Translations under genes and position numbers: made by a program
From: Dictyostelium discoideum
Lineage: Eukaryota
Reading direction: 5' to 3'
DNA: 64,000 nt
Assembly (NCBI GenBank): GCA_000004695.1
Contig: CM000151.3
Location: forward strand, 7,872,001 to 7,936,000
Shown: piece by piece, positions 48,699-50,522 of the stretch
Layout of the letters: every line of letters begins with the position of its first letter
Position numbering within the stretch: the first letter of the stretch is position 1
Notes under the pieces: model-generated
Databases searched by the model: none
What the model saw: the letters and a program-made list of their open reading frames with translations, nothing else
What the model was told of the DNA's origin: nothing

Positions 48699-50522
48699 TT
48701 AATGTAATAATGATTTAACAACTGATTTAATATTCATTCTCTTTAAATCTGTATAATTTTGACCAGTACCTAAAAATAAGATTGGATGACCAGTTGAATA
48801 AACCATTGAGATGGCAGCACCAACTTTATCGTCAATTGTATCAAATTTAGTGAGAATGATACCATCGATTGTACGAATATGAGTTTGAGTTGTATTTGCT
48901 AAAAGGGATAGGGATTTATCGAATTTAGTTAATTGATCAACACCATCATTACCAACTAAAGCTTCACCTACAAATAAGACCAAATCGACATTGTTTTGAT
49001 TGACCAATTTTGAGAGTGCTTTCATTAATGGTTCATTATTTTGCATACGACCAGTTGTATCGATCAAAACCACATCATAGCCGGTATCTTTAGCGAAAGC
49101 AATTGCATCTTGGGCTACTGAAGCGGCATCTTTACTATAACCTCTTTCAAAGAGATGGACATTCAAACGGTCAGCATGAGTTTTCAATTGTTCAATGGCA
49201 CCTGATCTAAAAGTATCACATGCAGCCAACATACATTTGTAACCATTTGCAGTCAACCAATAGCAAACCTTTGCCAAATTTGTACTCTTACCAACACCAT
49301 TTACACCACTGAAAACAATGCTATATGGACGTTTACCTTTAACGGCTTGTACCTCTCTAAGGATATCGATGTTTCTCTTTGGTGTTAGGATTCTTGTGAT
49401 TGTATCTTCCATTTGTTGTTTAACCACTGATGTTACACCTTGGAATGTAGCCAATTTCTTGCCCTCTAAACCTGTGCCAATCGATTGAACAATCTTATCG
49501 GCAACGTCTGGTGCAACGTTCTTTTTTGTTAAATGTAATTTAAAGTCTGCTAAAATTGGCTCCAAATCTTGTTTGTCAATAACACGATTACCAGTGAGTA
49601 CATTGAAATATTTCATAAATCCACTAACTGGTTTAGCCTCTTCTTCATCATCGTCGTCTGATGATGAAACATCCATATCTATATTGAACTTTTGAATCTT
49701 TTCTCTAACAATCTCTGTACCATTACTATTGTCTGATCTATTTAATGCCTCCAATTCTTTTTTTGACAACTTTCCATCTTCCCAAGTTCTTGCTTTCTTT
49801 CCTGTTGATGATGATGCTTGTTTATCTGGTGTATCTTTAACTTTCTTTTTATAGCCACCTGGTGATTTCTTTGCTTTTGCTGCTATTAATTTATTTCTAT
49901 TCTTTATAATTTCTTCATCTCATCATCACTATTTTCAATTCTTGCTACATCTGTTTGTTGATTTTTAGTTGCACCATTACTATTTTCTTCTGAATCACTA
50001 CCACTACTACTATCACTATCATCACTATCATCATCACTACTAATATCGTTTATATTATTTGCTTTATTTTGTTTTCTTCTTTCTGCTTTTTCTTTCTTTT
50101 CTTGTTCTTTTCTTTTAACTTTTTCAACTCTACCTTCTTTAATTGCCCTTTCATTCTTTTGATCTTTTACTAGTTTACCTTTATCTGTATCTTCATATTT
50201 CTTTGGTGCTGAATTTGAAGTTTGTTGTAGTTTTGATCTATTTTCAACATCTTCTAAAATCACTTCAAAATTAAATTCTTGAAATTTATCAACTATTATA
50301 AAATCTGATGATTCCTTTAATTTTAATAATAAATCTTTATACATTTTAATAAATCTTTTCTTTACTGTTGTTAATAATTCTTCAATATATAATAATGTAA
50401 ATATTTTTTGATAAACAACCTTTTTTTTTTTTATTTTTTTTTTATTAATAAATAAATAAATAAATAATAAGGTTAATAATAATAATAATAATAATAATAA
50501 TTTTTTAAATAAATTTATAATT

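What the first reader, a model, noticed from the sequence alone, without database searches (positions are those of the whole stretch)
49895..49930. Apparent 1-nt frameshift inside the SRP receptor alpha gene
SR-alpha is recognisable from its N-terminal SRX domain to its C-terminal NG GTPase domain. The reading frame breaks once, in the low-complexity acidic linker: frame A ends ...[10 protein letters not shown]-stop at 49904-49906 while the rest of the protein continues in the -1 frame ([15 protein letters not shown]...). No intron can bridge the ~20-nt overlap. One extra A in the run aagaaatt (aaa to aaaa) would restore a single ORF. SR-alpha is essential, so this is most likely a homopolymer sequencing error or a strain polymorphism, but it needs checking.
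Basis: seen in the sequence. Interest (0 to 1): 0.5.

Follow-up and report, generated by a model that had tools for sequence, protein, structure and literature searches.

The report
Missing base in Dictyostelium SR-alpha reference
The broken reading frame in this essential protein-targeting gene is real in the given sequence, but it is almost certainly a one-base error in the Dictyostelium AX4 reference genome, which the official annotation hides with a fake 71-base intron, so the database protein lacks 24 amino acids.

Summary
On the minus strand the SR-alpha gene reads in one frame to a TAA at 49906-49904, then continues in the -1 frame to the stop at 48701-48699.

The window is the D. discoideum AX4 reference, chromosome 2. 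Splicing out 50566-50420 and 49929-49859 reproduces the AX4 database protein (XP_642799.1/Q54ZR7, 615 aa) exactly.

The second "intron" does not look real:
- It starts GTGATG and ends CACCAG.
- It is 72% A+T, like coding sequence. Real introns nearby are 88-97% A+T.
- Seven related genomes read straight through it as coding sequence.

All seven have GATGAAGATGAAGAA where the window has GATGAGATGAAGAA. One of them is near-identical to the window and is almost surely the sister lab strain AX2-214. The true protein is 639 aa (…[15 protein letters not shown]…).

Over 22 kb, 64 of 73 polarisable substitutions against the AX2-like assembly are unique to the window. Many sit in smeared, low-quality-looking patches.

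Best explanation: a base-call error in the reference (about 0.9). A real AX4 mutation rescued by cryptic splicing is not excluded (about 0.05). AX4 reads could not be reached with these tools. Interest is low, but the fix is a useful annotation correction.

The parts
48699..50764 (-). SRP receptor alpha subunit (SR-alpha) gene of D. discoideum AX4, from the ATG at 50764 to the TAA at 48701-48699
   Evidence: Searches give the ORFs and frames. One search gives 96-98% identity to Dictyostelium SR-alpha proteins. One search gives the Pfam domains SRP-alpha_N, SRP54_N and SRP54.
50567..50764 (-). Exon 1 (66 codons, start of the SRX domain)
   Evidence: The exon1+exon2 junction ...DLIFV|VVYQKIF... 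matches all orthologues.
50420..50566 (-). Genuine intron 1: 147 nt, GTAAGT...AAAAAG, 95% A+T, in frame and free of stops, so a naive ORF scan reads through it
   Evidence: The same intron was recovered uniquely in relatives L006 (143 nt) and L007 (110 nt).
49904..50419 (-). Frame-A part of exon 2, ending in the premature TAA at 49906-49904 (...[11 protein letters not shown])
49919..49921 (-). Site of the missing base. The minus strand reads G-A-G here, where all seven relatives read G-A-A-G (GATGAAGATG). One A is absent next to 49920.
   Evidence: alignments with L001-L007
49859..49929 (-). The 71-nt 'intron 2' of the AX4 gene model (GTGATG...CACCAG). It is really coding sequence for [24 protein letters not shown], and it was used to hide the frameshift.
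   Evidence: Splicing it out reproduces P0004 (XP_642799.1/Q54ZR7) exactly. Its A+T is 0.72 against 0.88-0.97 for real neighbouring introns. It is in-frame coding sequence in all relatives.
48699..49918 (-). Frame-B part of the gene: the rest of the linker plus the NG (SRP54_N + GTPase) domain, with its stop at 48701-48699
49854..49854 (-). A second window-specific difference, 66 nt from the frameshift. The window has GGC where all seven relatives have GGT (synonymous Gly). It is the only other difference from L006 in 1.72 kb of coding sequence.

Best explanation
The window is the D. discoideum AX4 reference sequence, chromosome 2. The reference lacks one A in the SR-alpha coding sequence: the true sequence is GAT GAT GAA GAT GAA GAA ATT and the reference has GATGATGAGATGAAGAAATT. 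This is most likely a base-calling or assembly error from the original Sanger shotgun, in a window that carries many other error-like differences.

The gene finder then restored an open frame by inventing a 71-nt GT-AG intron (49929-49859). As a result the public protein (XP_642799.1 / UniProt Q54ZR7, 615 aa) lacks 24 residues of the linker. The real gene has one intron and encodes a 639-aa SR-alpha, identical to the protein annotated in the AX2-like assembly (KAM9946483.1).

Shown here:
- the frame break;
- the identity of the spliced model with the AX4 protein;
- the extra A in every relative;
- the non-intron character of the 71 nt;
- the excess of window-specific differences.

Inferred:
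- that living AX4 cells also carry the A;
- that L006 is the AX2-214 assembly.
For: 1. Seven independent genomes (L001-L007), from five named species or lineages, read GATGAAGATG and have an uninterrupted ORF.

2. L006 encodes P0122 (639 aa). It is identical to the window's product at every residue except at the break. In 1,722 nt of exon 2+3 it differs from the window only by the missing A and one synonymous C/T.

3. L006 comes from project PRJNA1300491. In that project the only assembly close to AX4 is the lab strain AX2-214. The authors report 99.5% AX4/AX2 identity at another locus, against 98.9% here including gaps. AX2 and AX4 both descend from DdB.

4. With the 3.8%-diverged L007 as outgroup, 64 of 73 polarisable substitutions between the window and L006 are unique to the window. 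They cluster in patches with a smeared look and recur as GG-for-GT. Two sister lab strains cannot truly differ this much.

5. There are precedents. RNA-seq showed a missing base in the AX4 reference at clcD, hidden by a curator's 2-base intron (PMC5282741). Resequenced AX4 lines shared 1,916 differences from the reference (PMC3466296).

6. The 71-nt 'intron' has a GTGATG donor, a CACCAG acceptor and 72% A+T, against a coding mean of 68%. Five distinct neighbouring introns, recovered without ambiguity from the annotated relatives, start GTA, end AAG or TAG, and are 88-97% A+T. A frame-restoring GT-AG pair is easy to find by chance: there are 320 of them.

7. The skipped segment includes KKSPG, which is conserved across dictyostelids.

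8. Only one AX4 SR-alpha protein is in the database, so no second copy could compensate.
Against: - No sequence read from AX4 itself, genomic or cDNA, could be examined. Exact look-ups for AX4-type products in public assemblies found nothing.
- The identification of L006 as AX2-214 is inferred from near-identity and the paper's strain list, not read from the record.
- The lost base sits in a simple AA dinucleotide inside good-looking coding sequence, not in one of the obviously low-quality patches.
- All seven comparison assemblies come from one pipeline, so a shared artefact is conceivable in principle. It is implausible, though, that such an artefact would restore a 639-aa ORF. Proteins from other laboratories' genomes (D. 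firmibasis, P. violaceum, T. lacteum) also read through.
Confidence: 0.9

Rival explanations
1. The 1-nt deletion is a real mutation of the AX3/AX4 laboratory lineage. Function is rescued because the 71-nt segment 49929-49859 is spliced out as annotated, giving a 615-aa SR-alpha with a 24-residue shorter linker. This would be recent 'intronization' of coding sequence.
For: - The GT...AG pair exists and the spliced product is a complete SR-alpha.
- The linker is length-variable. D. purpureum lacks most of this segment, so a shorter linker could work.
- AX4 differs from AX2 by known real mutations and duplications.
- No AX4 reads were seen, so this cannot be excluded directly.
Against: - The donor GTGATG, the acceptor CACCAG and 72% A+T are unlike the local introns (GTA..., AAG/TAG, 88-97% A+T).
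- 320 alternative GT-AG pairs would restore the frame equally well, so the pair carries no information.
- The measured mutation rate is extremely low, 2.9e-11 per site per generation. Reference discrepancies are common by comparison.
- It needs a frameshift in a gene expected to be essential, plus immediate efficient use of a weak cryptic intron.
Confidence: 0.05
2. The deletion is real and the gene is expressed as two separate polypeptides or is a pseudogene. The pieces would be an SRX-linker fragment of 237 aa and an NG-domain fragment from an internal start. SR function would be provided in some other way.
For: Both halves are intact ORFs with full domains.
Against: - Apart from the missing A there is a single synonymous difference from L006 in 1.7 kb, so there is no sign of decay.
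- No second SR-alpha from AX4 appears in the protein database.
- From general knowledge of SR, separating the membrane-anchoring SRX domain from the NG GTPase should disable targeting.
- The first ATG in frame B lies far downstream, at MDVSSS....
Confidence: 0.02
3. The frame change is decoded by recoding: programmed -1 ribosomal frameshifting, transcriptional slippage or insertional RNA editing.
For: - The shift needed is -1.
- The 126 nt downstream fold slightly better than shuffles (z = -2.2).
Against: - There is no X XXY YYZ slippery heptamer in the only permissible interval, GAG ATG AAG AAA TTA.
- There is no long homopolymer for polymerase slippage.
- The predicted fold is a long-range pairing of GAUGAUGA with UCAUCAUCA, not a hairpin or pseudoknot 5-9 nt downstream.
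- No relative has the frameshift, so nothing is conserved.
- From general knowledge, insertional editing is known in myxomycete mitochondria, not in Dictyostelium nuclear genes.
Confidence: 0.01

Closest known systems
Missing base in the AX4 reference at clcD (DDB_G0278639), described by Singh et al. 2017 (PMC5282741)
   Same: A single base is absent from the AX4 reference and breaks a conserved ORF. The annotation keeps the frame with an artificial intron. Independent data restore the base: RNA-seq there (22 of 23 reads), related genomes here.
   Different: At clcD a curator inserted an impossible 2-base intron, and transcript reads proved the error. Here the device is a plausible-looking 71-nt GT-AG intron that deletes 24 codons. 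The proof so far is comparative (the sister strain and six other genomes), not reads from AX4.
Eukaryotic SRP receptor alpha subunit (SRPRA / Srp101; Pfam PF04086 + PF02881 + PF00448)
   Same: The restored 639-aa product has the full architecture of SRX, charged linker and NG GTPase. It is 100% identical outside the break to the protein of the AX2-like assembly.
   Different: Nothing biological differs. Only the reference DNA and the database protein derived from it (615 aa) deviate.
Intronization / exitrons (coding sequence that becomes spliced)
   Same: The AX4 model treats a stretch of ancestral coding sequence, bounded by GT and AG, as an intron.
   Different: There is no transcript evidence. 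The splice signals and composition are unlike local introns. In relatives the segment is 72 nt of constrained coding sequence.

Membership tests
SRP receptor alpha subunit | N-terminal SRX / SRP-alpha_N domain | tested here: met
   PF04086 scores E 7e-44 on the frame-A product. Model positions 200-267 continue in the frame-B product.
SRP receptor alpha subunit | C-terminal NG domain (SRP54_N helical bundle + SRP54-type GTPase) | tested here: met
   PF02881 scores E 1.9e-10 and PF00448 scores E 3.6e-54 on the frame-B product.
SRP receptor alpha subunit | One continuous coding sequence joining SRX to NG | tested here: not met
   This is not met in the window as written. It is met in all seven related genomes and in all listed orthologues.
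Dictyostelium spliceosomal intron (for 49929-49859) | GT...AG termini | tested here: met
   The segment runs GTGATG...CACCAG. However, 320 GT-AG pairs could restore the frame, so this says little.
Dictyostelium spliceosomal intron (for 49929-49859) | Intron-like composition and splice signals (very high A+T, GTA-type donor, AAG/TAG acceptor) | tested here: not met
   A+T is 0.72, against a coding mean of 0.68 +/- 0.07. Five distinct neighbouring introns, recovered in both L006 and L007, have A+T 0.88-0.97, GTA donors and AAG/TAG acceptors.
Dictyostelium spliceosomal intron (for 49929-49859) | Not under coding constraint; absent from the mature mRNA | tested here: not met
   In all relatives the segment is in-frame coding sequence. 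Their indels are multiples of 3 and KKSPG is conserved. Transcript data could not be reached.
Programmed -1 ribosomal frameshift | Slippery heptamer X XXY YYZ at the shift site | tested here: not met
   The only permissible interval is GAG ATG AAG AAA TTA (49921-49907). It contains no such heptamer.
Programmed -1 ribosomal frameshift | Stimulatory hairpin or pseudoknot a few nt downstream | tested here: inconclusive
   The minimum free energy is -14 kcal/mol with z -2.2. The structure is a long-range pairing of repeat motifs, not a local stem.
Programmed -1 ribosomal frameshift | Frameshift conserved in related species | tested here: not met
   All seven relatives have a single frame.
Reference-sequence error (missing base) | State unique to the reference, absent from the sister strain and outgroups | tested here: met
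   The A is present in L001-L007, including the AX2-like L006.
Reference-sequence error (missing base) | Other error-like, reference-specific differences nearby | tested here: met
   64 of 73 polarisable substitutions are window-specific. There are smeared patches at about 53,845-54,910 and 40,199-40,551, and a second singleton lies 66 nt away.
Reference-sequence error (missing base) | Independent reads from the same strain (AX4) contain the base | not testable with these tools
   Look-ups of AX4-type products in public assemblies returned nothing.

The most novel reading that the evidence does not exclude
The A is truly deleted in living AX4 cells. SR-alpha is kept functional because the spliceosome now removes the 71-nt coding segment 49929-49859. 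That would be a brand-new intron born by intronization of coding sequence within a few decades of laboratory culture, in an essential gene.
Probability: 0.04. Interest if true: 0.7.

Novelty: not a real feature. Interest (0 to 1): 0.12.

Why it matters
It matters mainly as a correction. The curated protein for a core secretory-pathway component of a major model organism (XP_642799.1 / Q54ZR7, 615 aa) is probably missing 24 linker residues, [24 protein letters not shown]. This includes the KKSPG motif conserved among dictyostelids. The gene is also credited with an intron it does not have.

Such phantom introns can contaminate studies of intron gain, linker or MoRF analyses of SR-alpha, peptide identification and CRISPR or primer design. 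The case also shows that this stretch of AX4 chromosome 2 contains patches of poor base calls, which a comparison with the new AX2-214 assembly can flag systematically.

If the deletion instead proved real in AX4, it would be a rare observed case of intron birth. The evidence makes that unlikely.

Tried and rejected
**Searches for independent AX4 reads or transcripts.** All failed.
- Exact-product look-ups found nothing on record for the AX4 615-aa protein, for the 286-aa read-through ORF, or for the 356-aa C-terminal ORF.

**Further protein searches.**
- A search with the 280-aa linker was swamped by low-complexity words and returned nothing.
- A search with the SRX domain alone returned only six distant fragments and no Dictyostelium ones.

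**Literature.**
- SR-alpha is not mentioned in the supplements of the de novo transcriptome paper.
- It is not listed among the reported D. discoideum intron gains. I searched by the gene id DDB_G0277377, which I recalled from memory and did not verify.
- No Dictyostelium srpR paper was found.
- The 2005 genome paper is not held in the library.

**Hypotheses rejected.**
- Programmed -1 frameshifting, transcriptional slippage and RNA editing: there is no slippery site, no homopolymer, no conservation and only a weak fold.
- A compensating second gene copy: only one AX4 SR-alpha is in the database.

**Technical note.** A first fuzzy-matching script timed out. It was replaced by MAFFT alignments.

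Full report
**1. What is in the sequence**

The window is 23% G+C and Dictyostelium-like. On the minus strand an SR-alpha gene starts at the ATG at 50764. A GTAAGT...AAAAAG intron of 147 nt (50566-50420, 95% A+T) is in frame and free of stops.

Frame A then continues to ...[13 protein letters not shown] and a TAA at 49906-49904. Frame B is closed by TGA TGA TGA up to 49920. It opens with [25 protein letters not shown]... and runs to the TAA at 48701-48699.

Pfam places SRP-alpha_N positions 1-196 on the frame-A product. It places SRP-alpha_N positions 200-267, SRP54_N and the SRP54 GTPase on the frame-B product.

**2. Where the window comes from and how the databases treat the break**

A search with the repaired protein returned D. 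discoideum AX4 SR-alpha (P0004 = XP_642799.1 / EAL68875.1 / UniProt Q54ZR7, 615 aa), encoded on a contig of 8,484,197 bp. It also returned full-length 639-646-aa proteins from other D. discoideum strains, two 'cf. discoideum' isolates, D. citrinum, D. firmibasis and D. dimigraforme.

In the alignment the AX4 protein equals the window's product everywhere, but it lacks 24 residues exactly at the break. Splicing the window as 50764-50567 / 50419-49930 / 49858-48699 reproduces P0004 residue for residue.

So the window is the AX4 reference. Its gene model hides the frameshift with a second 'intron' of 71 nt, 49929-49859 (GTGATG...CACCAG).

**3. Which base is missing**

I fetched genomic DNA for seven relatives (L001-L007). 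All read GATGATGAAGATGAAGAAATT or in-frame variants of it. The window reads GATGATGAGATGAAGAAATT.

The window therefore lacks one A of an AA pair next to 49920. The ancestral peptide is ...[15 protein letters not shown]...

Over the 1.72 kb of exons 2+3 in eight genomes, every indel is a multiple of three except this one.

**4. Is the annotated 71-nt intron credible?**

The called genes of L006 and L007 gave unique exon-intron solutions for five distinct neighbouring introns, each recovered in both loci. They are 79-143 nt long. Their donors are GTAAGT, GTATAT, GTAATA and GTATGT, their acceptors AAG or TAG, and their A+T is 0.88-0.97. SR-alpha in those genomes has only intron 1.

The 71-nt segment differs on each count:
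- Its donor is GTGATG and its acceptor CACCAG.
- Its A+T is 0.72. That cannot be told apart from coding sequence of the same gene (0.68 +/- 0.07 in 71-nt windows).
- 320 different GT..AG pairs of 20-400 nt would bridge the two frames and leave an open reading frame. The existence of one such pair is therefore no evidence.

The segment also encodes KKSPG, which is conserved as far out as Polysphondylium and Tieghemostelium. The 'intron' is best read as a gene-finder's device.

**5. Sequencing error or real AX4 mutation?**

L006 (GCA_054883475.1) aligns to window 38649-60862 at 98.9% identity including gaps. Its SR-alpha (P0122, 639 aa) is identical to the window's product apart from the break. 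In exons 2+3 the only DNA differences are the missing A and a synonymous C/T at 49854.

The assemblies come from PRJNA1300491 (Holland et al., PNAS 2025, PMC12745789). That project sequenced the lab strain AX2-214 and nine wild isolates with Nanopore plus Illumina:
- It describes the wild isolates as genetically diverged from AX4.
- It reports 99.5% AX4/AX2 identity at the tgrBC locus.

L006 is therefore almost certainly AX2-214. This is an inference, because I could not read the BioSample. AX2 and AX4 both derive from DdB (PMC4374526), so they should be almost identical.

Yet window and L006 differ at 80 substitutions and 28 indels in 22 kb. With the 3.8%-diverged L007 as outgroup, 64 of 73 polarisable substitutions are unique to the window and only 9 to L006.

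The window-specific ones cluster at about 53,845-54,910 and 40,199-40,551. There the reference looks smeared. For example, the window has AACCCCCAATAAATTTGGATTTTTCCTTTCCCGGG where L006 has AATCTACGATTAATTATGATATTTTCATTACCTGG. Elsewhere they recur as GG-for-GT (52286, 48612, 47022 and others).

These look like base-calling errors, not mutations. The frameshift and the 49854 singleton, 66 nt apart, belong to the same class of reference-only states.

Published work agrees:
- Resequenced AX4 mutation-accumulation lines shared 1,916 differences from the reference. The authors attributed these to reference errors or to differences in the founder clone. The measured mutation rate was only 2.9e-11 per site per generation (PMC3466296).
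- RNA-seq proved a missing base in the reference at clcD, hidden there by a 2-base 'intron' (PMC5282741).

Only one AX4 SR-alpha exists in the protein database, so no spare copy could carry the function.

**6. Other mechanisms**

A -1 programmed frameshift would have to occur within GAG ATG AAG AAA TTA. This interval contains no X XXY YYZ heptamer. There is no long homopolymer for transcriptional slippage. The downstream 126 nt fold only slightly better than shuffles (z -2.2), through a long-range GAUGAUGA/UCAUCAUCA pairing. No relative shares the shift. These readings are rejected.

**7. What could not be done**

I could not see a single read from AX4 itself:
- Exact look-ups of the AX4-type products found nothing on record.
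- Two of the three protein searches were uninformative.

The conclusion that AX4 cells carry the A therefore rests on comparison and on the error-like context, not on direct observation.

**8. Verdict**

| Reading | Confidence |
|---|---|
| One-base omission in the AX4 reference, plus a phantom intron in the annotation | about 0.9 |
| Real AX3/AX4-lineage deletion rescued by splicing of the 71-nt segment | about 0.05 |
| Split gene or pseudogene | about 0.02 |
| Recoding (frameshifting, slippage or editing) | about 0.01 |

The corrected gene has two exons and encodes a 639-aa SR-alpha. As biology this is ordinary. As curation it is worth fixing.

Noticed in passing
window about 53,845-54,910 and 40,199-40,551 (intergenic): These are patches where the window differs densely from the AX2-like L006. 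Nearly all the differences are window-specific, because outgroup L007 agrees with L006. The window sequence looks smeared into short runs, for example CCCCC AA T AAA TTT GG at 54,030-54,090. They are probably low-quality base calls in the AX4 reference.
   Followed up: partly
window 52286, 48612, 47022, 40530, 40375, 40199, 55598, 54175: There are isolated window-specific substitutions with a recurring context. The window has GG where L006 and the outgroups have GT. This looks like a systematic base-calling artefact, not mutation.
   Followed up: partly
window 38649-60862 vs L006: 26 of the 28 indels are long A or T homopolymers that are 1-23 nt shorter in the Nanopore/Illumina assembly than in the reference. 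It is not established which technology miscounts.
   Followed up: no
P0006 (D. firmibasis, 952 aa); corresponds to window 51209-52171 plus 48699-50764: The D. firmibasis model fuses the upstream gene with SR-alpha. That upstream gene is the orthologue of the 320-aa secreted-looking protein at 51209-52171, which has a CfaA_B_C family hit in relatives. This is an annotation merge artefact.
   Followed up: no
P0008 (D. purpureum SR-alpha, 572 aa): The D. purpureum model lacks 27 residues inside the SRX domain ([26 protein letters not shown]...). These residues are invariant in the other dictyostelids. The cause is probably a mis-placed intron boundary at the conserved intron-1 position.
   Followed up: no
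window 50420-50566: The genuine intron 1 of SR-alpha is 147 nt long (a multiple of 3) and has no in-frame stop. A plain ORF scan therefore reads through it as [14 protein letters not shown] low-complexity 'protein' (the 286-aa ORF at 49904-50764).
   Followed up: yes
window 47462-47632: A short + strand ORF is made of tandem SNPIQ/FNSIQ units. This is a 15-nt tandem repeat in the stretch next to the porin gene, which in the relatives L006/L007 lies downstream of SR-alpha with a Porin_3 hit.
   Followed up: no
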